Assembly: GCA_964016885.1 (NCBI GenBank)
Contig: OZ024765.1
Location: 22,630,001-22,694,000, forward strand
Source of the DNA: Eledone cirrhosa
Lineage: Eukaryota
Direction: 5' to 3'
Length of the DNA: 64,000 nucleotides
Shown in pieces: positions 660 through 54,937 of this stretch. The position numbers and the translations under genes were made by a program. Under the pieces are notes generated by a model. That model was not told the DNA's origin, ran no database searches, and worked only from the letters and a program-made list of their open reading frames with translations. The stretch's first letter is position 1. Each line of letters starts with the position of its first letter.

Positions 660-1007
660 GAACCTAACCTCAACCCTATACCTAACCCTAAACCTAACCC
701 TAAACCTAACCCTAAGCCTAACCCTAAGCTCAACCCTAAACCTAACCTCAACCCTAACCCTAACCCTAACCCTAAACCTAACCTCAACCCCAACCCTACA
801 CCTAACCTTAACCCTATACCTAAACCTAACCCTAACCCTAACCCTAACCTCAACCCTAAACCTAAACCTAACCCTAACCTCAACCCTAACCCTAACCCTA
901 ACCTCAAGCCTAACCCTAAACCTAACCCTAACCTCAACCCTAACCCTAAACCTAACCCTAACCTCAACCCTAACCCTAACCCTAACCTCAACCCTAACCC
1001 TAACCCT
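660..1007. repeat. Degenerate telomere-like (TAACCC)n/(CCTAAA)n array, interstitial
   Basis: Hexamer variants CCCTAA, ACCTAA, CCTCAA read directly. Confidence 0.85.
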
Positions 1008-3452: not shown

Positions 3453-3503
<51 letters not shown>

Positions 3504-4354
3504 TTGCAGGATGTAAACCTCACCACCACCATCACCACCTTTATTTTTATGTAACTCATGTATTTATTATATATATGTATATATATATATATATATATAT
3601 TTGCAGGACGCAACCCTTGCCACCAAAACCACCGAAATCCACTGAAAAAGCAAGAACAAGTAAGTATATTTCCCCTCCCCCACCACCTCAATATATACCA
3701 CATCTATTCTCTCTTATTTTTCTTATTCTCATCCCCCACACACACACACCCCACCCCACTTAAATATATATTAAACATTTTGAAGGGCTAATTAATGCTG
3801 GGCCGGCAAACCGTTCTGTATGCAAATGAGTTTCAACAGTTCATAAACATAATTGGAATTCTATAGGAATCCAACTTCTATAGCTTACCGCAAAGGCAAA
3901 CGGATATGTAGTCTTGACGACCACTAAAAAGTGAAAAACGATTGACGATTACTTCCCTTTGTTTCTACTGAAGCTAGGTACAAGATGGTAGTCACTTCTT
4001 TAAATTCACAGTGAAAGGCCTTCAAAATGTTTTTAAATAAACATACAGTTCAATTCTCAGACCGGGTGATGTGTTGTTTCCTTGAGCAAGACACTTTATT
4101 TCACATTGCTCCAGTTTACTCAGCTGTAGAAATGAGATGATAGGGACTGGGGTCCCTATCATTCCACTGCAAAGTGGTCGTGGAGGTGCCACGGCAAAAA
4201 AGCACCCAGCACTCACTGTAAATGAGGTTGGTGTTAGGAAGGGCATCCAGCTGTAGAAATCAAGCCAGAATCAGTTCCTGTCCCACCCTTGCAAGCAGGG
4301 AAAAGCGGACGTAAAATGATGATGATGATGATGATGATGATACAGTATATTATA

Positions 4355-5891: not shown

Positions 5892-5987
5892 CCACCGATG
5901 AAACTCAAGAAAGTAACGTTCCAGTTGGTCTGATTGCAGCTTTAATATTGCTCTGCGTTCTCATAGCAGCATTGATATTTCTTTGGG
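5892..5987 (+). CDS. Host gene exon: transmembrane helix of a single-pass membrane protein (xTDETQESNVPVGLIAALILLCVLIAALIFLW)
   Basis: Polypyrimidine tract then ttatttAG acceptor and G|GTGAGT donor; 96 nt, phase 1-1; about 22 hydrophobic residues. Confidence 0.88.
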
Positions 5988-6092
5988 GTGAGTAACACGT
6001 CTTCATTACACATTAACCACACTACATACCAATAACACGTCTTCATTACACATTAACTACACTACATACCAATAACACGTCTTAATTACACA

Positions 6093-6365
6093 TTAACCCT
6101 TCAGCATTTAAACCAGCTGTAACTGGCCAGAATTCTCTCACCTCTTTCTGTTCAAATCAGCCATATCCGGCCAAAATTCTCTCACCTTTTTCTGTTCAAA
6201 CTGGCCATAACTGTCTGTTCATACTTATGTTAAGGTATTGTCCTCAAAATAAATAATATCAAAATCTCATAGATTCAATATCATGTGGAAAAATTAGGTG
6301 AAATAAAGGGTTTACCTTGATAATACAATAGTAAATATAGAGTCATGTAAATGCTAAAGGGTTAA
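6093..6365. mobile_element. piggyBac-type MITE
   Basis: TTAA-CCCTTCAGCATTTA ... TAAATGCTAAAGGG-TTAA termini. Confidence 0.8.
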
Positions 6366-6430
6366 CTACATCACATACCAGTAATACGTCTTCACTACAC
6401 ATTAACTACATTACATACCAGTAATATCTA

Positions 6431-7198
6431 TTAACCCTTTAGCACAGCGGTCTCCATTTTTTTATACCACGGACTGACTTCATGGCGGCAATCTTTGCCA
6501 GGACCGGTAGTTACACATATCTGTTATTTAAGTGTATTCGATAAAGAGAACAATAATAGAAACAGCAATTTATTAAAGAAGATGAATATTGAATATCTCA
6601 ACAAATTTTTTTAATTAAAGTCCAATATTCAATTTATCTTTAATATAATTTTAAACAAATTAATTATTTCTTTGTGGCCCGGTAACGAATGATCTATGGA
6701 GCAGCAGCGGTCCAAGGACTGGTGGTTGGGGACCTCTGCTTTAGCATTTAAACCGGCTGTAACTGGTCAGAATTCTCTCACCTCTTTCTGTTCAAACCAG
6801 CCAGAATTCTCTCGCATCTTTCTTTTCAAACCCGCCATAACTGGCTGCTCATAGTTATGTTAAGGTATTGTCCTCAAAATAAATAATATCAAAATCTCAT
6901 AGATTCAATATTATGTGAGGTAAAGTCTTTACTGTGAAAATACAATAGTATATATAGAGTAATGTAAATGTTATGTGAGATATTATGTGAGGTAAAGTCT
7001 TTACTGTGAAAATACAATAGTATATATAGAGTAATGTAAATGTTATGTGAGATATTATGTGAGGTAAAGCCTTTACTGTGAAAATACAATAGTATATATA
7101 GAGTAATGTAAATGTTATGTGAGATATTATGTGAGGTAAAACCTTTACCATGAAAATACAATAGTATATATATAGTAATGTAAGTGCTAAAGGGTTAA
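6431..7198. mobile_element. piggyBac-type MITE with internal 72-bp repeats, interrupted by a hAT MITE
   Basis: Same TTAA-CCCTTTAGCA termini; about four 72-bp units at 6910-7185. Confidence 0.8.
6445..6738. mobile_element. hAT-type MITE
   Basis: CAGCGGTCTCCA...TGGGGACCTCTG TIRs with an exact 8-bp TSD CTTTAGCA (6437-6444 and 6739-6746). Confidence 0.85.
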
Positions 7199-7306
7199 AG
7201 ACACTTAATGTAACAATTATAAAAATATTTATTCTCGTATTAAAGAAAAAAAATCTTTAAATATACCCTCGTCCTTTTTCACTTTTACTTATATATATAT
7301 ATATAT

Positions 7307-7780
7307 CATCATCATCATCATCATCATTTTACATCTGCTTTTCCCTGCTTGCAAGGGTGGGACGGGTCTTATTCAGCACAGCATCTCTCCACTCGTCACA
7401 GTCCTTCGTCATCTCCACCGTGAGCTTCAGTGATCTGAGGTCTGTTCTCACCACCTCTGCCCATGTTTTTCGTGGTCTACCTCTACCACGTCTTCCTTCA
7501 ACTGGCATTTCCTGGCATTTCTTCACCCATCGCTCATCCTCCATGCGCATCACATGTCCATACCACCTCAGTCCCCTCTCCCGTACACTACATTCTATCC
7601 CTCTCAGACACAGTTTCTCTCTCAACACATCCATGCTGTGTCGTTCACGCACATTTACACTGCACACCCAATGGAGCATGCTTGCCTCATTTCTCTCCAG
7701 CCGTCGCATATCCTCTGCAGTTACTGCCCATGTCTCACTACCATGCAGCATCGCACTCCTCACACAGGCATCATATAACC

Positions 7781-7782
<2 letters not shown>
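7307..7782 (-). mobile_element. RTE-clade LINE 3' end
   Basis: LHGSETW, LRWYGHVMRM, RGRGRPRKTW; (ATG)n tail. Confidence 0.9.
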
Positions 7783-7838
<56 letters not shown>

Positions 7839-7864
7839 TATAACTGTATGTATATATATATATA

Positions 7865-8750
7865 CAGGGTGTGGATGATATTTGTTCGCAATTTTAAACT
7901 GGTAATTTTATGCAAATTCTTTTTACTTCCGTTGTCACTCTTGTCCTCATAAAAACAGTGACTATATTTCCATTATTTATTTTCAGAATAATTGATTATG
8001 AATAATTTTGAACCTCCAAATTTGTGGAAGAGACACAGAGTTCTTGGAATCTGCGCCGGAAGGACAAATAAGGACCAGAAGATCAACTCCCAGAACAACA
8101 GGTGGCTCACTGTCTCATCCAAAGACGTGCCTAGAGTCATGCAGACAAAGTTTCCAGTGACAACATTGGTCTTAGGTGTCGTCAGCAGTCAAGGTGACGT
8201 AATGTCACCTCACTTCTTCCCTGAGGGCCTCAAGCTGAACACCAATGGCTACATCCGCGTTCTGAGCGAGGTAGTAAAGCCCTGAAACGACCAGGTAGCT
8301 GCAGGTAGGCCGTATGTGTGGCAGCAAGACTCAGCGCCCTGCCATACCAGCTGAAAGACCCAAGCCTGGCTGTCAGAGAACTTCGTCGACTACACTTCAC
8401 CTGACATCTGGCCTCCCAGCTCGCCTGACTGCAACCCCCTCAACTTCTTTGTGTGGGGTGCAGTGGAACAAGACACCAACAGATCTGGCTGCAATACGAA
8501 AGACGATCTGAAGGCCAGGATCACAAGTGCCTTTAGGGGCATAAGTCGGGGGACAGTGATGAAGGCCTGTAGCCAGCTCCGATGCCACCTTGAAGCCGTC
8601 ATCAAAGCTAATGGTGGGTTTATCGAGTGAGATCGAAAGAAGAAGTCATGAAGACAAACTGACCCAAGTTTGATAAATAAATCTTAAAAAATAAAACTAC
8701 TGTTATTTTTTCCTAGACAGTAAACTTGCAAACAAATATCGTCCGCACCC

Positions 8751-8752
<2 letters not shown>
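7865..8752 (+). mobile_element. Internally deleted Tc1/mariner maT (DD37D) transposon
   Basis: TIR CAGGGTGYGGAYGATATTTGTTYGCAA at both ends within (TA)n; QQD-x37-N (D mutated to N) with WPPSSPDCNPL; stop codons. Confidence 0.85.
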
Positions 8753-8822
<70 letters not shown>

Positions 8823-9096
8823 TTAAGGGTGAAAGCTGAAATTATTTGCTTAAACTTTTAATCTGTACTAATAATAAATATTTGCTCTACAGGTTTATAT
8901 ATTCTCATATATATTATATATACAACCCTTATCGAGTCCTCTCTGGATTTGTGTCTTTGTATTTGTTGTTACTATATATATATACACACATATATATATA
9001 TACATATGTATATATATATATATATCATCATCATCATCATCATTTTACGTCCGCTTTTCCCTGCTTGCAAGGGTGGGACAATATATATATTTATAT

Positions 9097-10579
9097 ATTT
9101 GTTTTGCAAGGTTTTTAATATGAATTGTGTGTCGAAACAAATATTGTTATACTTGGGGAGGGTCATATTGTTGTAATAATATTGCCAGAATTAATAACGG
9201 AACTCACTCACTGTTTGGTTGGTTTTCGCTTCTGTATCTTTTATATCAGTTAAGTCATTCGGTCCTCAATGTTTACCATTGCCTGACCAACGGTCAAAAA
9301 TACAGATATAATATAGACACAAACACATATATATATAGTCTAGCAAAGTTCTTTCGTTGCACATCTGCAACATCATCAGTGGTACTATTATGTTCCTCCT
9401 GTTGTATTGTATATCTACGCCATTTTTATTTTGTCTGTTTATTTATTTATTTATTTATTTTTGTCTGCGCATGCATTTGCGTGTGTGTATAGTGTTTGGT
9501 GTGTGTTCGCGTTTGGGTGACTGTGTTTTGGTTATTGTATTCTATCTTAGTTTACTAGTGTGTGTTTATATGTGTTTGTTGTTATTGTGCTTGTGTATAT
9601 ATTTATTTACTTATATTTCTCTTAGGTCAGTATTGTTTGTTTGGGTGTTGTTATTCCATTCATTTTTTTCTGTTTAGCTTTGGCTTTCTAAGTTCTATTT
9701 CACTGACCTCTCTGATTTGCCTCTCTGCTGGGTCATTTCTATGTTTAGATATTATTCTAATTTCTATGTTGTCTATGTTACTGTCCTGTTGTTGTCTGGT
9801 GTGTTTGTATAGTACTGAACCGTTTTTTCGTCCTTTTAGTTCCCCCCAGTGTTGGTCTATCCTTTCACCTATGCTACGAGCTGTCTCGCCTATGTATGTT
9901 GTTGTCATGTTTCTGCAAGTACCCTCTGTACATCTTATGCTATAGATTACGTTTCTAGTTTTACAATTTATCCGGGGGGTTTACTTTACATATAATACAT
10001 TTCCTATTAGTACAGTGGGTTTTCTTAAAACAGTATGTTTTGCTGATCAGGGATTTTATGGTAGTTCCTGGCTTTTCTACCACTTTAATCTTTAAGTGGG
10101 TCTTTTTCAGGGCCTTTCTACATTTCCCTCCAGGGGTAGCGTCCACAAACATGACACTCTGGTATTTCTTGTTGTCGTACCATGAGGTGGCTTTCCCTAT
10201 CTTATGTCTAGCCCTATCTAAGCTATTCCATGATTTGCTCCGGTTGATGAAGTGTCGGATGTGTCTTTCCATTTCTGTTGGGTCGCACATGTGGGACACG
10301 TTCTTCATTACTCAAGGAGATATTTCAGTCTCCTTTCCCACCATACCATAAAAAGGTTGGCAACATCACCAGCTAAGCTGACACCAATGGCTTTGTTAGA
10401 CTATATATCTGTATTTATATCTGTATTTTTGACCGTTGGTCAGTCAGTGGTAAACATTGATGGCCAAATGAATTAACTATGGAGATATAAAAGATACAGA
10501 AGCGGAAACCAACCAAACAGTGAGTGTGTTCTGTTATTATTTCTGGCAATATTAGAACAATATGACCCTCCCCAAGTAT

Positions 10580-10583
<4 letters not shown>
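9097..10583 (-). mobile_element. Penelope-like retroelement 3' relic (GIY-YIG endonuclease) between inverted terminal repeats
   Basis: CIICK linker, YIGETARSIGERIDQH...KH...RQIRE...PKLNRK; 9144-9310 inverted at 10415-10583; hammerhead-like motif at 9345-9385 on the minus strand in the 3' UTR. Confidence 0.8.
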
Positions 10584-10620
<37 letters not shown>

Positions 10621-10869
10621 AAATAAATAGAGATGATATAAAGTATATATCTTTCGTTTATTACTATTATTATCATCATTATTATATATATATATATATA
10701 TAGTTACATAACTATTAAGCTCTGTTAGCTACATAGAGCACTCTTTTTTCTTGGACTTTTCCGACGGAATTACTTCATATATATATATATATATATATAT
10801 ATCATTGGTCGTTTGTTCAATACAAAGCTTGACCACTCCAGTGTATAATATGCTCAGTTCTGGCATAGA

Positions 10870-11160
10870 GAGATCGTATGTGACTTTTTAGACCAGATGA
10901 CATACTTATGAAAAGCTGTCCTTATAAATTACATATTAATTTTGGTGCAGTTTGGACAGCCTCTGTATCTTGATGAACCTTGAAAGGTCTCTTTAGACCT
11001 TCTTAAGATTTGCAGATCTTTTGGCATATGTGACATTGGTAAGGCTGAACTGGTTGGTACATTCTATAATCAGTAGAGAGTGACATGTTGTGTGATCTGA
11101 TGTGAGACTGAAGCCCAGCCTCTGACAGTCAGATTCTGCCACAAACTGTATCACAGTAGA
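10870..11160 (-). pseudogene. Decayed triple C2H2 zinc-finger segment (probably a LINE C-terminus)
   Basis: One frame reads VCGRI*LSEAGLQSHIRSH...YQCHICQKICKS*EGLKRPFKVH...ICNL*GQLFISMSSGLKSHIRS. Confidence 0.6.
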
Positions 11161-11431
11161 GAAAGTTCCAGTAATTTCATGTTCCCTTAGTGGCTGTTTT
11201 TTCTTATACTATAAATTTTTTCAACATTCTATACATGTGTTTATATGTGTGTGTATATATATATGTGTGTGTAGATTGCGCACACAAGTGTAGTGGATAT
11301 TAGATGCTGTTTTCTGTAGTTTTTCGTGACCCCTTCCTTCCTCAATCATCTCTAGTCTGTGACAGAAGGACGAACGAACAGAAGTCACTCAAATTTATAT
11401 ATAGATTCCTCTTAATATTTACTTGCATTAA

Positions 11432-12690
11432 CAGTCCACTCTGTAATGTGGTCATGTAGGTGTCACAACAAAAAGCACCCAGTCCACACTGTAATGTGGT
11501 CATGTAGGTGTCACAACAAAAAGCACCCAGTCCACACTGTAATGTGGTCATGTAGGTGTCACAACAAAAAGCACCCAGTCCACACTGTAATGTGGTCATG
11601 TAGATGTCACAACAAAAAGCACCCAGTCCACACTGTAATGTGGTCATGTAGGTGTCACAACAAAAAGCACCCAGTCCACACTGTAATGTGGTCATGTAGG
11701 TGTCACAACAAAAAGCACCCAGTCCACACTGTAATGTGGTCATGTAGGTGTCACAACAAAAAGCACCCAGTCCACACTGTAATGTGGTCATGTAGGTGTC
11801 ACAACAAAAAGCACCCAGTCCACACTGTAATGTGGTCATGTAGATGTCACAACAAAAAGCACCCAGTCCACACTGTAATGTGGTCATGTAGGTGTCACAA
11901 CAAAAAGCACCCAGTCCACACTGTAATGTGGTCATGTAGGTGTCACAACAAAAAGCACCCAGTCCACACTGTAATGTGGTCATGTAGGTGTCACAACAAA
12001 AAGCACCCAGTCCACACTGTAATGTGGTCATGTAGGTGTCACAACAAAAAGCACCCAGTCCACACTGTAATGTGGTCATGTAGGTGTCACAACAAAAAGC
12101 ACCCAGTCCACACTGTAATGTGGTCATGTAGGTGTCACAACAAAAAGCACCCAGTCCACACTGTAATGTGGTCGTGTAGGTGTCACGACAAAAAGCACCC
12201 AGTCCACACTGTAAAGTGGTCATGTAGGTGTCACAACAAAAAGCACCCAGTCCACACTGTAATGTGGTCGTGTAGGTGTCACGACAAAAAGCACCCAGTC
12301 CACACTGTAATGTGGTCATGTAGGTGTCACAACAAAAAGCACCCAGTCCACACTGTAAAGTGGTCATGTAGGTGTCACAACAAAAAGCACCCAGTCCACA
12401 CTGTAATGTGGTCATGTAGGTGTCACAACAAAAAGCACCCAGTCCACACTAATGTGGTCATGTAGGTGTCACAACAAAAAGCACCCAGTCCACACTGTAA
12501 TGTGGTCATGTAGGTGTCACAACAAAAAGCACCCAGTCCACACTGTAATGTGGTCATGTAGGTGTCACAACAAAAAGCACCCAGTCCACACTGTAATGTG
12601 GTCGTGTAGGTGTCACGACAAAAAGCACCCAGCACACACTGCAAAGTGGTCATGTAGGTGTCATGACAAAAAGTACCTAGTCCACACTGT
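11432..12690 (+). repeat. 48-bp tandem array (about 26 units) amplified from a SINE internal segment
   Basis: Unit CACACTGTAATGTGGTCATGTAGGTGTCACAACAAAAAGCACCCAGTC runs directly into the SINE 3' part at 12690-12845. Confidence 0.92.
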
Positions 12691-13180
12691 AAATGAGGTT
12701 GGCATTAGGAAGGGCATCCAGCTGTAGAACTCAAGACAAAATCAGTTCTGTATGAGCAAGACATGGTCACCTGACCTAGCATTTCTCACAACAGGATAAC
12801 TCGTCTAACCCATGGAGATTTGACATTAAACAGTGTTGATGATGATATATATATATATAATTAGAATTTGATATTTTTAATTTTCGGCAAGGCGAGCCGT
12901 AAAATTGCTCGGTATGAAAATGAGGCTATTCAGTCGATCTATACTTTAGCAAATACTATATATTTTCAACAGTTCACTTGAGTAGCATAGAGGTGCTGAT
13001 GAAGGGTAATGACCCAGAAACATGTTGATTGTTCCTTGGTGCTACTGTTGAATGGATGGTTGGCGATAGCCATCAGGGCACAGCATAGCTTTGTAAGGTT
13101 CTTTGCTTGCAAACAAATCGAATATTATTATTATTATTCAATATAACCTATACTTACATATATATATATGTATATATATG

Positions 13181-13254
<74 letters not shown>

Positions 13255-13509
13255 AATAAATGTATTCTCTTTTCTCCTAGTTTATTTTACACCTAATTCT
13301 GTATATCTGGGCGATTACGCTGTCGAAATATTTGATAAATATTCCGTTGCAGCCAGCGCGAAGGGCTGGTTTCGGTTATTTGTTGGAGATTTCTTCATAG
13401 AAGCCTTATTCTTATAGCCTGGTCTATTCGATTTTTTATATGGTTAATTATGCTAATTGGGAGAGGAAATGGTATATATTTTATCTGGTGATTCTATAGA
13501 CATGTTTTA

Positions 13510-13579
<70 letters not shown>

Positions 13580-13816
13580 GAAAGGTATAGAAAGTATTTT
13601 AGCAAGAAGCCAACAGTATTCCATAATATATAAGTGACTATAGCGTCAAAATGGGAAAATAGTTAACATAAGATGTGGGAAAAATAATTCAAACTCAATT
13701 CAAAAAGAATCAGGATATAGATTTATCCAACAGAAATTAGTGAAATCCAGGTAAAAATCAATAGAGCCTTAACTCATGATAAAATAAAGTTTTAAATACT
13801 CATATATATATAGAGA

Positions 13817-13974
13817 GAATTCACAAGAATCAAAGCTATGTTCAAAGCATTTATTCACTTACAATTGTTTCATCCAAACCTAGGCTTGGAGTCTTCGGAG
13901 CATTTTTCAATTATGTGTACAAACATTGTAAGTGAATAAATGCTTTGAACATAGCTTTGATTCTTGTGAATTCT
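13817..13974. repeat. Fold-back with a degenerate minus-strand hammerhead
   Basis: About 49-bp perfect inverted arms; minus strand CCGAAGA-CTCCAAG/TTTGGAT-GAAACAATTGTA. Confidence 0.55.
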
Positions 13975-14200
13975 ATATAACTGCTCTGTAGAACAACTGA
14001 TGTTATTACATTGAGCTATTTATCTTACTGGTAATAAGGTAGTAATAAATTACTGACCTTCACTGTTTAGGGTTTAAAATATACATAACTATAAAAAGTT
14101 TTAGTATATACATAACCATAAATAGTATCCTTAATATTATATATATATATATATACACACATACATACTTATATACACACGCACACACATACTTATATAT

Positions 14201-14269
<69 letters not shown>

Positions 14270-14270
<1 letters not shown>

Positions 14271-15046
14271 GAGGGCAATCCCAAAAGTAAGGTCTCCTTC
14301 CGATATTGCAACTTTTCCATTAAAATCCTGTGGATGGGGCTTCGGGAAACCTCAGGAACCAAAATGCAGAGAGCATCCAGAGTGATCCGCCGATCTTTAC
14401 ACATGTTTTCCTTGGAAGGAGACCTTACTTTTTGTATTGCCCTCGTATATAATAACTGTGCGAATTTCGCACTTGGTTGCGGTAGCGTTCAACGGGAGCT
14501 CCATTCTCAATGGCTGCCAAGCCAAGATGGAGCATCCCAGCGAAGCGCGCACATGCTTGTTGGGGAGTGAAGGAAGCACCAATCGCAACAGTGTTGCCAA
14601 CAGCCGTACGAACAGTTTCTCTGCGTCCCCATCGCTTTGGAGACCTTACTTTTGGGATTACCCTCGTATATATAGGATTGAGGGAAGACTTACTGATTCA
14701 CGGTTATACACACACACATACACACATATATATATATACACATACATATATATATACATAAATCTATATGCATATACACATATATATGCACACTCACACA
14801 CATATACATACACATATATATATATATATACACATACATATATATATACATAAATATATATGCATATACACATATATACATACACATATATATGCACACT
14901 CACACACACACATATACATACACATATATATATGCACACACACACACATATATATACACATATATATATGCACACACAAACAGCCGTACGAACAGTTTCT
15001 CTGCGTCCCCATCGCTTTGGAGACCTTACTTTTGGGATTACCCTCG
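14270..15046 (-). mobile_element. Rearranged mariner relic with four TIR copies
   Basis: TIR CGAGGGYAATCCCAAAAGTAAGGTCTCC at 14270(+), 14445(-), 14666(-), 15046(-); transposase N-terminal pieces MELPLNATATKCEIRTVI and DRRITLD..VSRS.IH.IL.EKLQYRK. Confidence 0.75.
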
Positions 15047-15075
15047 TACATATATACATATATATACATATATAC

Positions 15076-15151
<76 letters not shown>

Positions 15152-16077
15152 TCATCATCATCATCATCGTTTAACGTCCATTTTCCACGCTAGCATGGGT
15201 CTATATGTACACATTCAAAACTTGGTAGCCAGGTAGATAGATAAATGGATGTAGAGATAGAAAGACATTTAGACAGTGATAGATGGAGAGACAGACAGAC
15301 AGATCAATAAGTTATCAGTAAGATTTATAGGAAGTTGATTTTGCAGTTGAAAGCCAATAAAAACTTATAATTACTTTCATCTTCACATTTAAATTATACA
15401 TGTTCAAGGGCCTTTGCCTTCCATACTTGTTCCAGAGTAGATCAAAACAAGAATCACCTTTACATTAATTCAATAGATAATCAATAACCACCCTTCAACC
15501 AGGTCTGATTGGTTTGTCTGTTTAATCAAATGAAATCAATATAAAAAAAGCCCCCCAAAAAACAAAATCAACGAGGAATCAAATCAATAAATTTTATTGA
15601 GATCAATGTTTGTTGTGTGATTTTGAGACTTTGGGGCCTTGAACTGGTGATTAAGTAGTTCAATACCTGAGGGAAATCAACAATATATCTATCTTTATAG
15701 CTTTTGTAGCAGTGTGTGTGTCTATATATATATATGTGTGTGTGTGTGTGTATATATATATATCATTTTCATCATTTTCATTTTATGTCCGCTTTTCCCT
15801 GCTTGCAAGGGTGGGACAGGAACTGATTCTGGTTTGATTTCTACAGCTGGATGCCCTTCCTAACACCAACCTCATTTACAGTGAGTGCTGGGTGCTTTTT
15901 TTTTGCCGTGGCACCCCCACGACCACTTTGCAGTGGAATGATATGGACCCCAGTCCCTATCATCTCATTTCTACAGCTGAGTAAACTGGAGCAATGTGAA
16001 ATAAAGTGTCTTGCTCAAGGAAACAACACATCACATATATATATATACGTGAAGGCACATGGCTTAGTGGTTAGAGC

Positions 16078-16118
<41 letters not shown>

Positions 16119-16154
16119 GGTTTGTATGTATGGATAGAAGTTTGTATATATGTA

Positions 16155-16620
16155 TGTGAAAGTGTATGCCACATGTGTACTGTCAGCTTTGCTGTATACA
16201 TGTGAGACATGGGATGTCTACAAATGGCATATCCACAGACTGGAACGGTTTCACCAGCAGTGTCTCGGAAAGATGCTCAGTATCAAGTGGCAGATGCATG
16301 TGAGTGATGTTGAGGTCCTTGAGAGAAGTGAGTGTCGGAGCATTGAGAGTATCATCCACCAACGGCGTTTGCGATGGACCGGACACCTCTGCAGAATGGA
16401 GGATGATCAAATCCTGAAACAACTTTTGTATGGTGAGGTGAGCTTTGTGAAGGTAAGGGACCAACTCACAAGCCAAAGCTCTGACTCAAGGATTGTGTAA
16501 AGGACTCGTTGAAAAAAATGGTTTGATGATGGCTGACTGGGAGATAGAAACTCTTGAAAGAGAAACTTGGTGTGGAATGGTGAATGATGGGGTCCATAAT
16601 TTTGAGGACAGACGCATAGA
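16155..16620 (+). mobile_element. RTE-clade LINE fragment
   Basis: LLYTCETW, LERFHQQCL, RLRWTGHLCRM, KQLLYGE. Confidence 0.88.
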
Positions 16621-17712
16621 GTACTTCTTCCATTTCAGTATCCCGGAAGAGTCCATGTATGATGAAGGGGTGTGAAGCCTGCTCTTGGTGGTTCACTTCC
16701 CGTCTACAATCACAGCTGAGGAATTCTGGGAAGTTTATCAAACCCTCCATCACATATCAAACATTGTCACATGACTATTTACACCAATCACGCTGCTCCT
16801 TTTATTCAAACTCAGTTATTATTTTTTTCCTCACTCACACTCACAGACATCACTCACAGACATCACTCACAGATATACTCACACACAGAGACACTCACAC
16901 ATATACACACACATACAGAGGCAGTCACACATATACTCACATACAGAGGCAGTCACACATATACACACACATACAGAGGCAGTCACACATATACTCACAT
17001 ACAGAGGCAGTCACACATATACTCACACATACCAGCCACACTCACAGGCATCACTCACAGATACACACACTCATACAGAAACAAGTACACACACACACAC
17101 ACAGAGATACACACACATACTAACTACACACACACACACACATATCCACACGCAGAGACACACAAACACACTCACACACACATACACATACACAGACACA
17201 CACACACACACACAGACACACAAACACACACACAGAGACACACAAACACACACACTCAGACACACAAACACACACACTCAGACACACAAACATACACACA
17301 CACTCACACAGACATACACACACACACAGAGACACACAAACACACAAACACACACAGACATACACAGACATACACACACACACACACACACAAACGCACT
17401 CACACAGAGACACACAAACGCACTCACACACATACACACATACACACAGAGACATACACACAAACACACACACCCAGACATACACACACACACTCAGACA
17501 CACAAACATACACACACACTCACACAGACATACACACACACACACACACAGAGACACACAAACACACACTCAGACACACAAACATACACACACACTCACA
17601 CAGACACAAACACACTCACACAAACACACTCACACAAACACACACACACATCATCATCACCACCATCATCATCATCGTTCAGTCAAACAGTCGTTATTTT
17701 TCTTTCTTCTAG

Positions 17713-17775
17713 TGAAATATCGAAAGCGTGAGAAAAGACGCCTGAGTCGTCGGATGATGAAGGAGGCCTTAGAAG
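17713..17775 (+). CDS. Host gene juxtamembrane exon, variant A (VKYRKREKRRLSRRMMKEALE)
   Basis: ttttctttcttctAG acceptor, AAG|GTGTGT donor; 63 nt, phase 1-1; basic stop-transfer sequence in frame with the TM exon. Confidence 0.72.
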
Positions 17776-17857
17776 GTGTGTAGCAACTCCCGGGTTTCGA
17801 ACTCGGCGGACATCTTGTGTAATGTTCATTGTTTTTCTCTTTTGCAATATTTTGCAG

Positions 17858-17926
17858 TAAAATACAGGGAACACAAACGGAAAATACAGGAGCGAGTCGT
17901 TGAACGAATGATGAGACGAACTCAAG
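17858..17926 (+). CDS. Host gene juxtamembrane exon, variant B (VKYREHKRKIQERVVERMMRRTQ)
   Basis: ttttgcAG acceptor, AAG|GTCAGT donor; 69 nt, phase 1-1; paralogous to variant A (VKYR...RMM). Confidence 0.8.
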
Positions 17927-18439
17927 GTCAGTTAGTTAGTTGGTTAATGAGTGAATGCCTTCTACTCCTCATCAGCAGCAGCCAGCCAGCCAATTTGTTT
18001 TTTTTTTTGTTTTTTTTTTGCTTGACAACAGCTAATTTTTTTTAATTTACAAACATTTTTTCTAATTTCTTTTTTTTTTTTTTATTTGTTTTGAATTTAA
18101 AAAAAATTTTTTTGAATTTAAAAAAAAATTTTTTTAATTAAATAATTTTTTTTTTTTAATTTAAAAGAAAATTTTTTTGAATTTAAAAAAAATTTTTTTT
18201 AATTAAATAATTTTTATTTTAATTTAAAAGAAAATTTTTTTTAATTTAAAAAAAATTTTTTTTAAATAATTTTTTTTTTTAAAAGAAAAATTTTTGAATT
18301 TAAAAAAAATTTTTTTTGAATTTTTATTTTTATCTTTTCTTCTTGCCTTGCTTTAAAGCATGCAAATAACTGGACTTCGTTTCTATCATTGCCTTGTGCA
18401 TGGCTTTTAATTATTATCATTATCATTATTGTTATTATA

Positions 18440-19595
18440 AGGGCGGTGGATTGGCAGTATCGGTGGAGGGTCGGACACCATGCTTTGACGCATAGAGTTA
18501 CGGCCCTTGCCATTCTGTGTTCAAATCCCGCCGAGGTTAACTTTGCCTTTCATCCTTACGGGGTCGATAAAATAAAGTACCAGTAATACACTGGGGTAAT
18601 TGCTGGCCTTGTGCCAAATAGTAGAAACAATTATTATTGTTATTATTATTGTTGTTGTTTCTTTCAGCATGTTTGTCAACTTTTGTAAATATTATTTTCA
18701 TTTATTACTATTATTATTATTATCAGTATCGGTAGAGGGTCGGACGCCATGCTTTGCAGCATGGAGTTACGGCCCTTTACGTTCTGAGTTCAAATCCCAC
18801 CAAGGTTAACTTTGCCTTTCATTCCTTACGGGGTCGATAAAATAAAGTACCAGTAATACACTGGGTTAATTGCTGGCCTTGTGCCAAAAAATAGAAACAA
18901 TTATTATTATTAAGAGCGGTGGATTGACAGCAGAATCGGTAGAGCGTCAGTCAAAATGCTTTGCAGCATAGAGTTATGGCCTTTTACGTTCTGAGTTCAA
19001 ATCCCGCTGAGGTTAGCTTTGCCTTTCATCCTTCTGGGATCGATAGAATAAAGTACCAGTAATGTACTGGAGTCGGTTTAATCGACTTTCCTCCTCCCCC
19101 TCCCTGAATTGCTGGCCTTGTGCCTATATCGGAACCCATTATTGTTATTATTATTATTATCATTGTCCTTATTATTATTATTATCATGTCGGCCCTTGTG
19201 GCCAATAAATGAAATCATTATTATTATTATTATTAGAGAGTCGGACGCCATGCTTTCCAGCATAGAGTTACGTCCCTTTACGATCTGAGTTCAAATCCCG
19301 CCGAGGTTGACTTTGCCTTTCATCCTTACGGGGTCGAAAAAATAAAGTACCAGTAATGCACTGGGCAATTGCTGGCCTTGTGCCTAAAGTAGAAACAATT
19401 ATTATTATTATTAGAGGGTCGGACACCATGCTTTCCAGCATAGAGTTACGTCCCTTAACGATCTGAGTTCAAATCCCTCCGAGGTTAACTTTGCCTTTCA
19501 TCCTTAGAGGGTCGATAAAATAAAGTACCAGTAATGTACTGGGTATTTGCTAGCCTTGTGCCAAAAGTAGAAACAATTATTATTATTATTATTAT
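18440..19595 (+). mobile_element. Head-to-tail cluster of about six SINE B copies
   Basis: Repeated body separated by (ATT)n tails; similar clusters at 20240-20930 and 39020-39690. Confidence 0.85.
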
Positions 19596-21589
19596 AAAGC
19601 ATTGTGGGATATGTAATAAAAGAAAGCCATTATAAATCGGTAGAGATATATAAAGGATGACAAGTAATATTTTTACCCAATATATTTCAACATGATATTT
19701 CAGGGTAAACTCCCTCTTTTCAAATGTGAAAAAGAAATTGCGCAAAACAAAAACAAATGATCAATGTCTCAGAAATCTAGATCAGTTTAGGAAAAACACA
19801 TCAATTGTTTGCTTTTCACGTGTAAGGAATGATTATTTTTGCTTACACACACACAAATACACACTCTCTCTCTCTCACACACGTTTACACATACCATATA
19901 CATACACACACACACACACACCAAACGATGTTTCCTCGGGTGGACCAGCAGTATCGTTGGTAGGGGTCGAAACTTCCCAAGTTCATCTCAACGGCCGATG
20001 CCCAAGGAGTTCTCTGTCTTTCATTTGTATATTTGATTTTTTTAAATAATGTTTTAAGGTTTCCCTTTAACACACACACAGACATTGCCAAAACAAAAAC
20101 AAATGATCAATGTCTCAGACATCTAGATCAGTTTAGGAAAAACCCATCAATTGTTTGCTTTTGTTTTGAACAGTTTCTGCTTTTTATTTGAAAAGAGGGT
20201 GCTTTCCCTGAAATATTATGTTAAAATATACTTATTTAATCAACTTCCTCTCTCCCAAAATTGCTGGCCTTGTGCCTGAATCAGAAAGCATTATTATTAT
20301 ATTATATTAGAAGGGTGGTAGATTGGCAGAATTGGTAGAGGGTCGGACGCAATGCTTTGCAGTATAGAGTTACGGCTCTTTATGATCTGAGTTCAAATCC
20401 CACCGAGCTTAACTTTGCCTTTCATCCTTATGGGGTCGATAAAATAAAGTACCTGTCATGCACTGGGGTTGATTTAATCGACTTTCCCTCCACCGATATT
20501 GCTGGTCTTCTACCTATATAAGAAACCATTATTATTATTATTAAGGGTTCGGACGCCATGCTTTCCAGCATAGTTACGTCCCTTTACGATCTGAGTTCAA
20601 ATCCCGCCGAGGTTGACTTTGCCTTTCATCCTTACGGGGGTCGATAAAATAAAGTACCAGTAATACACTGGGTAATTGCTGGCCTTGTGCCTAAAGTAGA
20701 AACAATTATTATTATTAAGGGTGGTAGATTGGCAGTATCAGTAGAGGGTCAGACACCATGCTTTGCAGCATAGAGTTACGACCCCCTTATGTTCTGAGTT
20801 CAAATCCCGCCAAGGTTAACTTTGCCTTTCATCTTTACGGGCTCGATAAAATAAAGTACCAGTAAAATACTGATTTAATTGCTGGCCTTGTGCCAAAAGT
20901 AGACACATTATTATTATCATTATTATTATCATAAGCTCTATATATATCGAGCTACCCCTCTCTATGCAAATGAGTTTCATCAATCAGCTCATAAACAGAA
21001 ATCCATAAGAATCTAGCTTCTTTTATCTTCAGCAAAGGCAGGGAGATGTGTAGTCTTGACAACCACTTATAAGTGAGAACCGGTGGCATTGTTGATTACT
21101 TCCCCCTGCTTTTGCTGAAGCTAGGTATGTGACGATCGTCACAGCGAGGTCAACTTTGCCTTTCATCCTTTCGAGGTTGATAAAGATAAGTACCAGTTTA
21201 GTACTGGGGTCGATTCTTCCTCTATATCTCTTTCTTAGTTCCTCTCTCTCACTTTCTATCTTTCTCTGGGAGAAATCTGCTGTACTCAGGCCTGGGGAGG
21301 GATGGGCTTCGCCAGGTTTAAAATGCCCAAGAATTCATATATTATTAAATATACAATACATACATTCATATATTGCTATGTGGTGGTGGAAAGTCAGTAG
21401 TTTTTCTAGGTTGTCTCCCTTGATTTAAATTAACAAAAACAATTAGTCGTTTAGTTTACATATTGAGACACCAATGGATGTGAGTTCAGTTCATGTCCCA
21501 TGTTTGTCAATACTCATCCTTTTTTCCATTCAGAGGATTTTTTTTTAAATCGCAACTAACAGACTAATTCTAATATATATGGCTCTGAA

Positions 21590-21915
21590 CATTAATCAGT
21601 ATACACTGAGGATGAAAAACTCAGAGCTGTATGGGAGCATCCCAAAAGTCAGCTCAAAAGTGACACAGAGGAGACTGAGGTTAGCTGGACATGCTCACCG
21701 ACATCCAGAGTTGACATTGCACTCAGTACTCCTTTGGGAGCCCCTACATGGACACACTAGAAGAGGAAGACCAAGGTTAACGTATGTTGAGGCCCTAAGG
21801 ACAGACACTGGTCTGTTGGAGACGCAGGACATGGCAGCGATAATGAGGGACAGAGACCGCTGGAGAGAACTCGTCCATGGATCTCGGGAATTTTACCCGC
21901 CTTAGATAGATAGAT
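21590..21915 (+). mobile_element. RTE-like LINE 3' fragment
   Basis: RRLRLAGH..RH, LLWEP.HG..RGRP, DRDRWR. Confidence 0.85.
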
Positions 21916-21977
21916 ATATATATCAAGATAAGCAGAACAAGTAAAATTCAACCAATTTTTCAAAATAAATCAAAATA

Positions 21978-22010
<33 letters not shown>

Positions 22011-22016
<6 letters not shown>

Positions 22017-22090
22017 GCAAAGGTGTTGCTCTGAGGATCGCCAACAGCGTGAAACAGATTCTGTCAGCTTCTCTCCCTTCTTTTGCCGAA
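22011..22090 (+). ncRNA. Type-I hammerhead ribozyme
   Basis: GCT-CTGAGGA-TCGC/CAACA/GCGT-GAAACAG-ATT-CTGTC-AGC; GUC site at 22063-22065; inverted degenerate copy at 22771-22842. Confidence 0.75.
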
Positions 22091-22199
22091 AAAAGAAGTA
22101 AGTGACATAGTCACTACTTTAAAAATGATAGCGCAATGTCTTCAAAATGTTTTTAATTAAACATACGGTATATTGCCAAATATACTATACATACATTCA

Positions 22200-22232
<33 letters not shown>

Positions 22233-22253
22233 TTATATATATGTGTGTATATA

Positions 22254-22288
<35 letters not shown>

Positions 22289-22422
22289 CATGTATCGATG
22301 TATGGATATATATATATATATATATTAAAGTGTTAAACAAGATTCAATGAGTATGTCAAAGAAAGAGTTTTACAGTAGATTGGAAGCACTCTACAGTAAA
22401 AAAAATATTTTCGGGAGTTATT

Positions 22423-22746
22423 AATATTAAAATACAAATATTAATAAAATAGATGTTCTTTTGATCAATTACATTTTATTATACATATTTCGGATGTACA
22501 TCAGTACGTCCTCATCAGACAAAATATAATGATACATGACGTACCCTGAGATGTTAAATAGTTAAGATTTAATCAAGGTAGACTCAAACTACCTTGATTA
22601 AATCTTAACCATTTAACATCTCAGGGTATGTCATGTATCATTATATTTTGTCTGATGAGGACGTACCGTTGTACATCCGAAATATGTATAATAAAATGTA
22701 ATTGATCAAAAGAACATCTATTTTATTAATATTTGTATTTTAATAT
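22423..22746. mobile_element. Near-perfect fold-back element (about 158-bp arms, 7-nt loop) with a hammerhead in each arm
   Basis: Plus copy CTGATGA(22652)-GGACGTAC/GTACATCC-GAAATATGTA; minus copy at 22488-22518. Confidence 0.8.
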
Positions 22747-22897
22747 ATATATATATATGAATGTATAAAAGAAGGGAGAGAAGCTAACAGAATCTGTTTC
22801 ACGCTGTTGGTGACCCTCAGAGCAACACCTTTGCCGAAAATTATATATATATATATATATATATTAGGTAGTAACATGTGTTTACACTGTATGTCTG

Positions 22898-22961
<64 letters not shown>

Positions 22962-23026
22962 CGCTCATGTATTTATATGTTTGAATGGCTATATATCATT
23001 TATCTCTCCCATTCTCCACACTGCAG

Positions 23027-23095
23027 CTGATACGGAAAGCAACAGTCAAACCATATCACCAGACACCAGTAAAGATCTTAATAAATCGGAATCAG
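23027..23095 (+). CDS. Host gene cytoplasmic exon (ADTESNSQTISPDTSKDLNKSES)
   Basis: ctgcAG acceptor after a pyrimidine tract, CAG|GTATGT donor; 69 nt, phase 1-1; unique sequence among repeats. Confidence 0.8.
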
Positions 23096-29963: not shown

Positions 29964-30011
29964 AAAACTTGCTCTATCCTCCATCTGGACATAGTAATTC
30001 AGTAGAAGAAA
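29964..30011 (+). CDS. Host gene cytoplasmic microexon (ENLLYPPSGHSNSVEE)
   Basis: tttttctatttcAG acceptor, A|GTTAGT donor; 48 nt, phase 1-1. Confidence 0.68.
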
Positions 30012-31177: not shown

Positions 31178-34100
31178 ATGAATACTGATAATAAGAGCAA
31201 TTCGACTTTATCAAACTGAACTACAGCGGTGACGGCGTGCAGCCAGGAATGAAGAAAAATGGGCCGAACAGCGCCATCAGAACGCCAAACTTCAGAGGCG
31301 AAGACGTGCCGCCATGAATGAAAAGGAGCTGGCTGAACAACGCCAACGAAACACTGAAGACGAACTGGCTGAGCATCATCATCAGATGGCCGGAATTCAG
31401 CTGCAACGGCGTGCTGCGATGGATGAAGAGGAGCTGGCTGAACAGCACCAGTGCAATACAGAAGTTCAGGGAATGTGTAGCCAAAGTGCTCCTCATTCCA
31501 GTAAAGAGGCTAGAAGGCGAACAGATGATATTAAAAATGGATCATGGCAACCGTGTCATTTTCAGATTGGTGGGCGATCAGAGTGTCCACATTGTGGAGC
31601 ATTGCTTTGGAGGCACGAAAGGACGTGGACCACAATGTGCTGTCATAAAGGAGCAGTTCAACTAGAACCCTTGCGAATGCCGGATGATGGGGAGTCACCG
31701 GAGTTTAAAATACTAAGTATGTGGGGTGATCAAGGAGACCGAGGTAGATTACTGCGCAAATATTCGCAGCAAATTAACAATCCATTAGCTTTAGCATCGC
31801 AGAGAGTTAGTGAGATGTTTGAGAGTGGAGCATGGCAACCGAATGTAGTCATTCAAGGCCGTTTGTATCATTGTATCGGTAATTTAGAAGTTACCCCAGG
31901 AGAGAGGCCTCGATTCGCTCAAATTTATTTTAACGATCCAGATTATAGTGAATCGGAGGAGGATATCAGGATCGGTTGGATGAAGTTGCCAGGAAATATA
32001 ACTGAATTTGAACGGCAAAGGTTAAATGATTTGATCCGTGATTTGCAATCATGGTTTAGACAGTGTAATCCTTATGTTATGGATTTCATGTTGGTGGCTG
32101 AACTGCAAAATGTTCAGCAGAAAACATTGGTGATTAAGGCTGACGCAGTGCCAAGGAATCAACACAAACGGCAATATAATGCCCCTGGAGTATTTCGTGA
32201 AGTTGCTGTGTTGATGGACGATAAGCCTGAATCGATAGATATTGTCCTCAATTGCAGGGATGGTGGTCTCAAGAGTATCAATGAGTCAAATAGGACATAC
32301 CATCCATTGTATTATGTTCTTTTATTCCCAAAAGGTGAAAATGGATGGAACATGTCTGTTCATTTAGATGATCATGAGAATCAGCATCAACAGGGAGGTG
32401 GCAATAGACACAATAATTCGATTCGCGACTTTTACGCGTTCCATTTGAACGAGAGGAATCAACAGAGAAATGCGCTATTTCAAGCCAGCAGATTGTTCCA
32501 GGAATACTGTTGTATGGCATACGCAAAGATCGAAAATCAAAGGCTAAATTATATAGCTACACATCAGCAACATATCAGAGCTGAATTGTATAATAATATA
32601 CAGGATGCGATAACAGCCGATGATGCCAATTACAAGCAAATTGGTCGACGCATCATTTTGCCATCGTCGTTCATCGGCGGCCCGAGATATATGAACATTC
32701 GCTATCAAGATGCAATGGCTATTGTCAGAAAGTTTGGAAAGCCATATTTGTTTATAACGGTTACATGCAATCCTGAATGGACTGATATTAAGGATGCACT
32801 TTTGCCAGGACAACAGCCAAAGGACCGTCCTGATATTGTGGCAAGAGTATTCAAAGGATATCTAAAAAAGATAATGGAAGATGTGGAAAAAGAGGGAATC
32901 TTTGGAGGTATAGTTGCTTTTACATACGTAATTGAATTCCGAAAAAGAGGATTGCCACATGCACATTTGCTGATAACTTTACATAGAGATTGTAAATTGA
33001 GATGTGCTGAGGATGTCGACAGCATTGTGTGTGCTGAACTGCCGGAGAGTGAGGCACTACGCAACTTGGTGGCAAAGTCAATGCGAAGTGGCAAATCGGA
33101 AAGCGCCTTGCATGAAAAATGGCCAATGCAGTAAGCACTTTCCGAAATCTTTTGTCACGAGCACTTCCTGGAACGATGGGGATGCTCATCCCTCATACAG
33201 AAGACGGTCGCCTGCAGATGGCGGTTTGGTCGAAAATGTAAACGGTCGACAGGTTACAAATCAATGGGTTGTGCCATACAATCCATATTTGATTATGAAA
33301 TATCGTTGTCATATTAATGTGGAAATTTGTAGCTCAGTGAAAGCTTGCAAATATCTATTCAAATATGTTTACAAAGGTCATGATCGGGCAATGATCAATG
33401 TCAGGAATGAGGAAGCGAACCAAGGAGATGAAGTTGGCAGGTTCCAGGATGTTCGCTCGATTGGATCTAGCGAAGCTTGCTGGAGATTGTTTGATTTTGA
33501 TCTCAATGAACGCAAACCCAGCGTTCAGAAACTGACGGTTCACTTAGAGAATAGGCAAATGGTCTGTTTTCAGGACACTAGAAGAGGTATCGAAAGAATT
33601 GCTAACGCACCACCTCCTAAGACGGAATTGACTGAGTGGTTCAAGCATAATAGGGAACATGCTTTGAACCCGGATCAAAAGCAACTCTACTGCGATTTCC
33701 CTTCGCACTATACGTGGGATAAGAAGGGAAAGAAATGGAATGATAGAAAACAAAAGTTGAGATTCATGACTATTGGACGAGTTTGTAATGTCCATCCAGC
33801 ATCTGGTGATGTGTTTTATCTCCGAATTCTGTTGCATAATGATATTTCGAGAGGTAAACAGAGCTTCGCTGATTTGAAAACAATCAATGGCGTGGAATAT
33901 GAAACATACCAGGCTGTGTGTCAGCATCTGGGACTCCTTCAGGATGACGCTGAATGGAATAACGCCATGGAAGTGCAGGAACAACACAGACGCCAACTCA
34001 AATAAGGCAGTTGTTTGTCATGATTCTAGGATTCTGCAATCCTGCCGATCCAAGAGAGTTATTTGAACACCATTGGGGAATTATGGCTGATGATTTTAGG

Positions 34101-38433: not shown

Positions 38434-38478
38434 GTTTGCCTTCGCCAATATCTGATACATACGATGAAACTTCTGAAA
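38434..38478 (+). CDS. Host gene cytoplasmic microexon (SLPSPISDTYDETSE)
   Basis: ttttccccAG acceptor, A|GTAAGT donor; 45 nt, phase 1-1. Confidence 0.82.
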
Positions 38479-39698: not shown

Positions 39699-39743
39699 CT
39701 AAAAAATGTCTTGACCCAATTGAAGAGGATGGAAACCAAGATG
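39699..39743 (+). CDS. Host gene cytoplasmic microexon (TKKCLDPIEEDGNQD)
   Basis: catAG acceptor after an (ATT)n tract, ATG|GTAAGT donor; 45 nt, phase 1-1. Confidence 0.72.
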
Positions 39744-50193: not shown

Positions 50194-50238
50194 GACACCT
50201 CAACACCAAAGAGAATCAATACTCCCAAATGTACGAAG
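50194..50238 (+). CDS. Host gene cytoplasmic microexon (GHLNTKENQYSQMYE)
   Basis: atattttcAG acceptor, AAG|GTAAAC donor; 45 nt, phase 1-1; a unique island between two repeat arrays. Confidence 0.8.
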
Positions 50239-54823: not shown

Positions 54824-54937
54824 ATTTCAGCATGCTCCAGCAGACCCCTGAAAACACATACCGTAACCATCGCTATTCCAGAAGATACAATAGCTATGGT
54901 GGTAGTTACAGATCTTATCACACGCGATACCACGACG
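54824..54937 (+). CDS. Host gene Tyr/Arg-rich cytoplasmic exon (DFSMLQQTPENTYRNHRYSRRYNSYGGSYRSYHTRYHD)
   Basis: gtctAG acceptor, ACG|GTGAGT donor; 114 nt, phase 1-1; overlaps ORF 54832..55089. Confidence 0.78.

What the first reader, a model, noticed from the sequence alone, without database searches (positions are those of the whole stretch)
17713..17926. Tandem paralogous juxtamembrane exons, probably mutually exclusive through steric hindrance
Seen: two phase 1-1 exons, VKYRKREKRRLSRRMMKEALE and VKYREHKRKIQERVVERMMRRTQ, each continue the TM exon in frame. The intron between them is only 82 nt, while every other intron here is over 1 kb. It has a candidate branch A at 17822 (47 nt from the donor) and a GC-rich hairpin CCGGGTT-TCG-AACTCGG (17790-17806) between donor and branch point. 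Known: a short donor-to-branch distance plus a hairpin enforces mutual exclusion in alpha-tropomyosin. Both exons are multiples of 3, so NMD could not enforce it. Inference: a switch between two polybasic membrane-proximal helices, which are possible calmodulin, ERM or lipid-binding segments.
Basis: partly seen in the sequence, partly recalled or inferred. Interest (0 to 1): 0.75.

Follow-up and report, generated by a model that had tools for sequence, protein, structure and literature searches.

The report
Duplicated juxtamembrane exons in octopus receptor
An octopus membrane-protein gene carries two anciently duplicated short exons, only 82 bases apart, each coding a positively charged stretch just inside the membrane; they are likely used one at a time, which would let cells swap a version with a predicted kinase site for one without.

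Summary
Observation confirmed. Exon A (17713-17775) and exon B (17858-17926) are phase 1-1, 3n, GT-AG and 82 nt apart; the nine other introns are 1.2-11.7 kb. The gene is an uncharacterised octopod single-pass protein. An Argonauta model joins TM-A-next exon and an Octopus sinensis model joins A's end to the next exon; none of five models contains B. A and B are old paralogues (8 of 20 aligned residues identical, 5 by different codons; neutral-drift p about 0.004), more diverged than A is from Argonauta A, so B is probably functional. Mutual exclusion is likely but unshown: no RNA was available. The steric mechanism is only partly supported: two branch candidates lie 47 and 53 nt from the donor, which impairs but does not block splicing in human cells; the branch point is conventional, not tropomyosin-like; the hairpin is no better than shuffles. 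New leads: only A has a conserved RRxS kinase-site motif, and upstream CA/CAT microsatellites are predicted to pair over A's branch region and donor. No IQ motif. New member of a known kind; interest 0.4.

The parts
3607..3659 (+). predicted extracellular stalk exon (phase 2-1), Pro/Lys/Thr-rich
   Evidence: splice scan; no orthologue covers it
5892..5987 (+). transmembrane exon (96 nt, phase 1-1)
   Evidence: 21 of 31 residues identical to Argonauta P0001
16832..17675 (+). CA-rich then CAT microsatellite tract upstream of A; holds most of A's branch candidates; 17660-17673 predicted to pair with 17753-17766 in exon A, and CA letters with A's donor
17713..17775 (+). juxtamembrane exon A (63 nt, phase 1-1), net +7, RRxS motif
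   Evidence: 16 of 20 identical to P0001; its end matches the start of P0004 in 4 of 6 residues
17776..17857 (+). 82-nt GT-AG intron, no AG in the last 72 nt before the acceptor
17790..17806 (+). 7-bp hairpin (-6.5 kcal/mol), not beyond chance
17822..17822 (+). branch candidate 1, 47 nt from donor, 36 from acceptor
17828..17828 (+). branch candidate 2, 53 nt from donor, 30 from acceptor, better consensus fit
   Evidence: consensus recalled
17858..17926 (+). juxtamembrane exon B (69 nt, phase 1-1), net +6, no RRxS; paralogue of A; not seen in any model
23027..23095 (+). next cytoplasmic exon (69 nt, 1-1)
   Evidence: 20 of 22 identical to Octopus models
29964..30011 (+). 48-nt tail exon; present in P0003, absent in P0005 (cassette in O. 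bimaculoides models)
38434..38478 (+). 45-nt tail exon
   Evidence: 14 of 14 identical to Octopus models
39699..39743 (+). 45-nt tail exon
   Evidence: 14 of 14 identical to Octopus models
50194..50238 (+). 45-nt tail exon with a YxxM-type motif (motif name recalled)
   Evidence: 11 of 14 identical to P0003
51930..51965 (+). 36-nt acidic tail exon
   Evidence: 8 of 11 identical to P0003
54824..54937 (+). 114-nt Tyr/Arg-rich tail exon; in the Argonauta model, absent from O. bimaculoides models
   Evidence: 30 of 37 identical to P0001

Best explanation
A and B are tandem-duplicated first cytoplasmic exons of an octopod single-pass membrane protein and are likely spliced one at a time, A by default and B when A is silenced, with the minimal 82-nt intron likely making A-to-B joining inefficient rather than impossible. 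How it would work: U1 on A's donor and U2 on a branch point 47-53 nt away compete for space, so each donor prefers the distant 23027 acceptor (inferred). A is transcribed first and has the stronger sites, so it wins by default (scores shown; outcome inferred). Silencing A, by proteins or by base-pairing of the upstream CA/CAT tract over A's branch region and donor (fold predicted, function inferred), frees B's branch point. The protein keeps a VKYR-led polybasic membrane anchor in both forms, with a predicted PKA/PKC site only in A.
For: Same phase, 63 and 69 nt, both open. 8 of 20 aligned residues are identical and 5 of these use different codons; random drift to the same 46% DNA identity keeps 8 or more residues without a stop in 0.4% of 100,000 runs, and keeps VKYR in 0.07%. 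Both copies keep the TM-adjacent VKYR, as expected if each must follow the TM (inference). A matches Argonauta A 16 of 20, B only 8 of 22, so the duplication probably predates that split. Of 5 orthologous models, 2 reach the region and both join A to the next exon without B. Only 2 branch candidates lie in the intron, at 47 and 53 nt; human constructs show about 50% or more impairment at 47-50 nt and rising constraint under 56 nt, most where a competing site exists (PMC11291888, abstract and passages). This intron alone stayed minimal among 10. Site scores A 7.4+5.2, B 4.2+4.4. A with 70 nt upstream folds at z -3.84, lowest of 11 exons.
Against: B is in 0 of 5 models, and no junction read was seen; the models are predictions, and I could not see whether B exists in those genomes. 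Human short introns peak at 85 nt (PMC4463651 abstract) and nematode introns splice from about 40 nt (PMC4165533 passage), so 82 nt may be freely spliced in octopus. The better-fitting branch candidate is above the 50-nt rule of PMC5740500. The hairpin is not beyond chance. The A-masking fold weakens with other windows (z -2.07 and -1.66, second to exon 3607) and rests on microsatellites, which dinucleotide shuffles overrate. The tail has at least two in-frame exons that orthologous models skip, so simple cassette behaviour is normal in this gene. The codon test used an alignment chosen for protein similarity. Steric clash does not explain why skipping both exons, also in frame, is avoided. 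In C. elegans only 29 clusters were confirmed from 55 putative events.
Confidence: 0.55

Rival explanations
1. B is an additive cassette: isoforms are TM-A-next and TM-A-B-next, the 82-nt intron being an ordinary minimal intron, giving a short or a doubled polybasic segment.
For: A+B is in frame. Both informative models contain A and none has B alone. Other tail exons are skipped in orthologous models. 82 nt is near the human short-intron peak of 85 nt, and the 53-nt branch candidate fits the consensus best.
Against: B keeps the TM-adjacent VKYR under apparent selection, which has no obvious need 21 residues from the membrane. 47-53 nt is a constrained distance in human cells.
Confidence: 0.24
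2. A and B are mutually exclusive, but enforced by splicing proteins or long-range competing RNA pairings, with the short intron and hairpin incidental.
For: All the paralogy evidence. Only 57 (9%) of human clusters showed potential steric interference (PMC5740500 passage). YCAY and CA repeats lie upstream of A, two GTTAGT motifs directly after B (factor assignments recalled).
Against: No docking/selector-like partner clearly better than shuffled probes: 24 probes of 20 nt, each against 3 shuffles, over 5988-23026. YCAY occurs 27.6 times per kb across the window, so it is not specific. The intron stayed minimal in an otherwise expanded gene.
Confidence: 0.1
3. B is a dead or almost unused duplicate and A is constitutive.
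For: B is in 0 of 5 orthologous models; its splice sites score lower than A's.
Against: Open frame, intact GT-AG, a 72-nt AG-free zone and synonymous-biased divergence despite 46% DNA identity. The two searches that could have found B also missed P0001, which was in their length range, so their blank is weak.
Confidence: 0.08
4. Both exons are constitutive.
For: A+B is in frame.
Against: Two models from two other genera or species join A directly to the next exon.
Confidence: 0.03

Closest known systems
Drosophila Dscam1 exons 17.1/17.2 (TM1/TM2)
   Same: Two mutually exclusive exons at the membrane of a single-pass receptor, separated by a short intron (252 bp) beside a long upstream one (PMC7685093 passages). 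A paper titled as showing steric hindrance plus RNA structure for this cluster appears in reference lists; I saw only its title.
   Different: Here the TM helix is in a shared exon and only the cytoplasmic juxtamembrane segment is duplicated; the intron is 82 nt; no sequence relation to Dscam was found; exclusion is not shown.
alpha-tropomyosin (Tpm1) exons 2/3 and OGDH exons 4a/4b, distant-branch-point steric exclusion
   Same: Homologous tandem exons with a short donor-to-branch distance and an intervening intron that resists expansion (PMC7969005 passages).
   Different: There the distance is 41 nt (Tpm1) or 25-41 nt (OGDH) and the branch point is mapped and distant from the acceptor. Here it is 47 or 53 nt, unmapped, and 30-36 nt from the acceptor in a minimal intron.
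C. elegans too-short-intron clusters (egl-15 5B/5A, let-2 9/10, bet-2 3a/3b, gly-5, gly-6)
   Same: Exclusion by intron shortness itself rather than a distant branch point (PMC4165533 passages).
   Different: Those introns are under the species minimum of about 40 nt; 82 nt is not known to be under the octopus minimum.
Tandem duplicated exon substitution events (human and Drosophila)
   Same: Old homologous exon pairs, enriched in membrane proteins (PMC9741552 passages).
   Different: Substitution is not yet shown here; the host gene has no known family.

Membership tests
Homologous mutually exclusive exons (criteria of PMC5740500) | neighbouring exons of similar length with the same reading frame and phases | tested here: met
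   63 and 69 nt, both phase 1-1
Homologous mutually exclusive exons (criteria of PMC5740500) | sequence similarity of the encoded peptides | tested here: met
   194 of 20,000 shuffles reach the global score; first four residues identical
Homologous mutually exclusive exons (criteria of PMC5740500) | junction reads linking each exon to both flanking exons | not testable with these tools
   no RNA run listed; only gene models, and only for A
Homologous mutually exclusive exons (criteria of PMC5740500) | absence of reads joining the two exons | not testable with these tools
   no RNA data
Tpm1/OGDH-type steric exclusion | donor-to-branch distance under about 50 nt | tested here: inconclusive
   candidates at 47 and 53 nt; branch point not mapped
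Tpm1/OGDH-type steric exclusion | distant branch point with a long polypyrimidine tract before the acceptor | tested here: not met
   candidates lie 36 and 30 nt from the acceptor
   60 of 400 shuffles as good, z 0.07; forms at 0.67-0.99 in the wider context; conservation untested
Dscam-type docking site/selector exclusion | conserved competing long-range base pairings | tested here: inconclusive
   no clear partner above shuffled probes; no orthologous intron DNA for a conservation test
NMD-enforced exclusion | double inclusion shifts the frame | tested here: not met
   A+B is open and in frame
U2/U12 incompatibility | a U12-type donor flanking one exon | tested here: not met
   donors GTGAGT, GTGTGT, GTCAGT are U2-like (U12 consensus recalled)
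IQ-type calmodulin-binding segment | IQ or IQ-like consensus | tested here: not met
   no match in A, B or Argonauta A; 1-5-10 patterns appear only with Met allowed and are absent from Argonauta A (consensus recalled)
ERM/FERM- or lipid-binding polybasic juxtamembrane segment | binding to FERM domains or anionic lipids | not testable with these tools
   only net charge +7 and +6 was computed

The most novel reading that the evidence does not exclude
A two-part RNA switch in a cephalopod-specific receptor: intronic CA/CAT microsatellites act as an antisense arm that masks exon A's branch region and donor, while a minimal 82-nt intron bars A-to-B joining, so that repeat length or repeat-binding proteins toggle a kinase-switchable membrane anchor (A, RRxS) against a kinase-blind one (B).
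Probability: 0.13. Interest if true: 0.68.

Novelty: new member of a known kind. Interest (0 to 1): 0.4.

Why it matters
If shown, it adds an unannotated mutually exclusive pair in cephalopods, where my search found little (4 papers hold both 'cephalopod' and 'mutually exclusive exons'; I saw only their listings, none on a cephalopod gene by title). It swaps only the membrane-proximal basic segment, with or without a predicted phosphorylation site, like a narrower Dscam TM1/TM2 choice. It also gives a natural test of the octopus spliceosome's minimal donor-to-branch distance, for which I found no value. The mechanism class itself is known, and the host gene has no known function.

Tried and rejected
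No own genome was held. Sequencing runs: no RNA holder listed, 3 runs of one sample; 0 contigs laid in 3 of 3 runs, which the tool says can be false; neither is evidence. Word-indexed protein searches with the TM exon (14 candidates, 0 hits) and the A/B alignment (24 candidates, 0 hits) missed even P0001. P0002 was dropped: a repeat protein at 35% identity. Metagenome scans: 157 and 253 pattern matches, 0 confirmed. Pfam: nothing at the curated cut-off for 6 window peptides or P0001. PDB sequence search: 0. ESM Atlas: best scores 0.89 and 0.88, leads only. Rfam: 1 weak match on the AT-rich minus strand, far under its threshold; the intron does not fold as an end-to-end mirtron hairpin. No third copy of A/B in six frames of the window. 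A U2-duplex energy test of branch candidates was uninformative. The B peptide model is all helix at pLDDT 90, but it is a 40-mer with intron-read flanks, so weak; in the P0001 model the helix covers the TM and only the first 8 residues of A. Earlier scan notes: 0 in 3 look-ups. Locus identifiers: 0 papers. PMC3917985 was not held. PMC13644364, PMC5534336 and PMC7404189 gave nothing usable. No supplements were read; those of PMC5740500 or PMC7969005 may bear on thresholds.

Full report
Observation. A 96-nt transmembrane exon (5892-5987) is followed 11.7 kb later by exon A (17713-17775, 63 nt), an 82-nt GT-AG intron, exon B (17858-17926, 69 nt) and, 5.1 kb on, an exon at 23027-23095. All are phase 1-1. 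The four splice forms I translated (A, B, both, neither) are all open, so nonsense-mediated decay cannot police the choice. With the gene refined to 11 exons, the other 9 of 9 introns are 1,220-11,725 nt. A crude splice-site scan, with its cut-off set just under B's score, passes 4 phase 1-1 candidates on the plus strand, 3 of them orthologue-supported and the fourth B, and 0 on the minus strand.

The gene. A search of 1.84 billion cluster representatives with the tail exon 54826-54936 gave 2 hits. P0001 is a partial hypothetical protein of Argonauta hians; P0002 is a repeat protein and was dropped. P0001 retrieved 4 of 447 candidates: itself, two Octopus bimaculoides models and one O. sinensis model; a cluster look-up added a third O. 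bimaculoides model. These confirm the TM exon, A and seven tail exons. The product is a single-pass protein with a mostly disordered, tyrosine-bearing tail (model). It has no Pfam, PDB or confident Atlas family, and its identifiers occur in 0 papers of the library. The ectodomain and the last exon lie outside the window, so the gene remains unnamed.

Is each exon real? A is 16 of 20 identical to P0001, where it follows the TM and joins the next exon. The O. sinensis model starts with six residues that match A's end in 4 of 6 and B's in 1 of 6, then enters the next exon. The three O. bimaculoides models start in what looks like intron sequence and are uninformative (inference). So 2 of 5 models show A without B and 0 of 5 show B. 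These are predictions, not reads. B's support is internal. A and B share 8 of 20 aligned residues, 5 through different codons, at 46% DNA identity. Random mutation of A to that identity keeps 8 residues without a stop in 0.4% of 100,000 runs, and keeps the splice-anchored VKYR in 0.07% (the alignment was chosen by protein similarity, the VKYR test is independent of that). Composition shuffles reach the A/B score in 194 of 20,000. B matches Argonauta A at only 8 of 22, so the duplication is probably older than that split and B probably exists in those genomes too, which I could not check. The two searches aimed at the TM and at A/B found nothing, but they also missed P0001.

Mechanism of exclusion. 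In human constructs, 47-50 nt gives about 50% impairment or more, constraint rises under 56 nt, most where a competing site exists, and over 60 nt is safe (PMC11291888, abstract and passages). Surveys use a 50-nt rule, met by 57 (9%) of human clusters (PMC5740500 passages). So both candidates are in a biasing, not forbidding, range. Against this, human short introns peak at 85 nt (PMC4463651 abstract), nematode introns splice from about 40 nt (PMC4165533 passages), and I found no octopus value (searches; passages 64, 69). The geometry is not that of Tpm1 (41 nt) or OGDH (25-41 nt), whose branch points are distant from the acceptor (PMC7969005 passages); here they are 30-36 nt from it. The hairpin at 17790-17806 is -6.5 kcal/mol; 60 of 400 shuffles do as well and the region's z is 0.07. 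It pairs at 0.28-0.43 in one context and 0.67-0.99 in a wider one. I found no passage confirming a hairpin in alpha-tropomyosin. No long-range docking partner stood clearly above shuffled probes (24 probes, 3 shuffles each).

A new lead. An inverted repeat pairs 17660-17673, in the CAT tract that holds most of A's branch candidates, with 17753-17766 inside A. In the fold, upstream CA letters also cover A's donor while both of B's branch candidates stay unpaired. With 70 nt upstream A folds at z -3.84 (0 of 100 shuffles), the lowest of 11 exons. With two other windows z is -2.07 and -1.66, second to exon 3607. The window was chosen after seeing the repeat, the arm is microsatellite (7 such CAT tracts in the window), and shuffles overrate repeats. 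It is a testable way to silence A, not a finding.

Protein consequence. Net charges are +7 and +6. A carries RRxS, kept in Argonauta; B has none (kinase assignment recalled). Neither has an IQ motif. The single-sequence model of P0001 extends the TM helix through only the first 8 residues of A; the all-helix model of B is weak evidence. A phosphorylation-switchable versus fixed membrane anchor is therefore my preferred functional reading, by inference only.

What was not obtained. No RNA run was listed and nothing was laid, so no junction was seen. The tail has other in-frame exons that orthologous models skip, which keeps the additive-cassette rival alive.

Comparison. The closest analogue is Dscam1 exon 17.1/17.2 (PMC7685093 passages; the steric-hindrance paper on it seen only as a title), then Tpm1/OGDH and the too-short-intron clusters of C. 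elegans. The pair meets the sequence criteria for homologous mutually exclusive exons; the read criteria are untestable here. It fails the distant-branch-point feature of the Tpm1 type, so it should not be filed there, though it may work like it. PMC13762713, PMC6027157 and PMC9741552 were seen as passages; no supplements were read.

Verdict. Real, old, probably functional duplicated juxtamembrane exons. Mutual exclusion by any route about 0.65, with the short intron as a partial barrier 0.55; additive cassette 0.24; B dead 0.08; both constitutive 0.03.

Noticed in passing
window 3471-3536: Degenerate tandem duplicate (85% over 66 nt) of the acceptor and start of the exon at 3607-3659, about 100 nt upstream of it; a possible second, younger exon duplication in this gene.
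   Followed up: no
window 29964-30011 and 54824-54937: In-frame tail exons present in some orthologous models and absent from others: the tail looks modular by cassette splicing.
   Followed up: partly
window 31233-35565: Broken Helitron-type element in an intron: Helitron_like_N (E 1.8e-59) and PIF1 helicase (E 2e-69) in separate frames.
   Followed up: partly
window 53723-54105 and 1729-2068: Near-perfect inverted repeats with 178-nt (99%) and 154-nt (97%) arms inside introns; would form long double-stranded RNA, possible A-to-I editing substrates (inference).
   Followed up: partly
window 661-1007: Degenerate 6-nt array resembling an interstitial telomeric repeat (resemblance recalled).
   Followed up: no
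window 45485-50174 and 54979-62183: Large minisatellites (41 nt x 119, 70 nt x 98) ending or starting within about 40 nt of the exons at 50194 and 54937.
   Followed up: no
window 17790-17806: The hairpin is built on a TTCGAA palindrome and on the minus strand resembles a tRNA T-arm or B box (recalled); blastn found no match to the window's SINE copies.
   Followed up: partly
window 17927-17945 and 18358-18402: Two GTTAGT motifs directly after B's donor and two GCATG motifs about 450 nt downstream; possible splicing-factor sites (assignments recalled), not tested.
   Followed up: no
window 29964-30011 and 50194-50238: Tyrosine motifs NLLY and Y-S/T-QM are kept in Argonauta and Octopus models, suggesting a signalling tail.
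   Followed up: no
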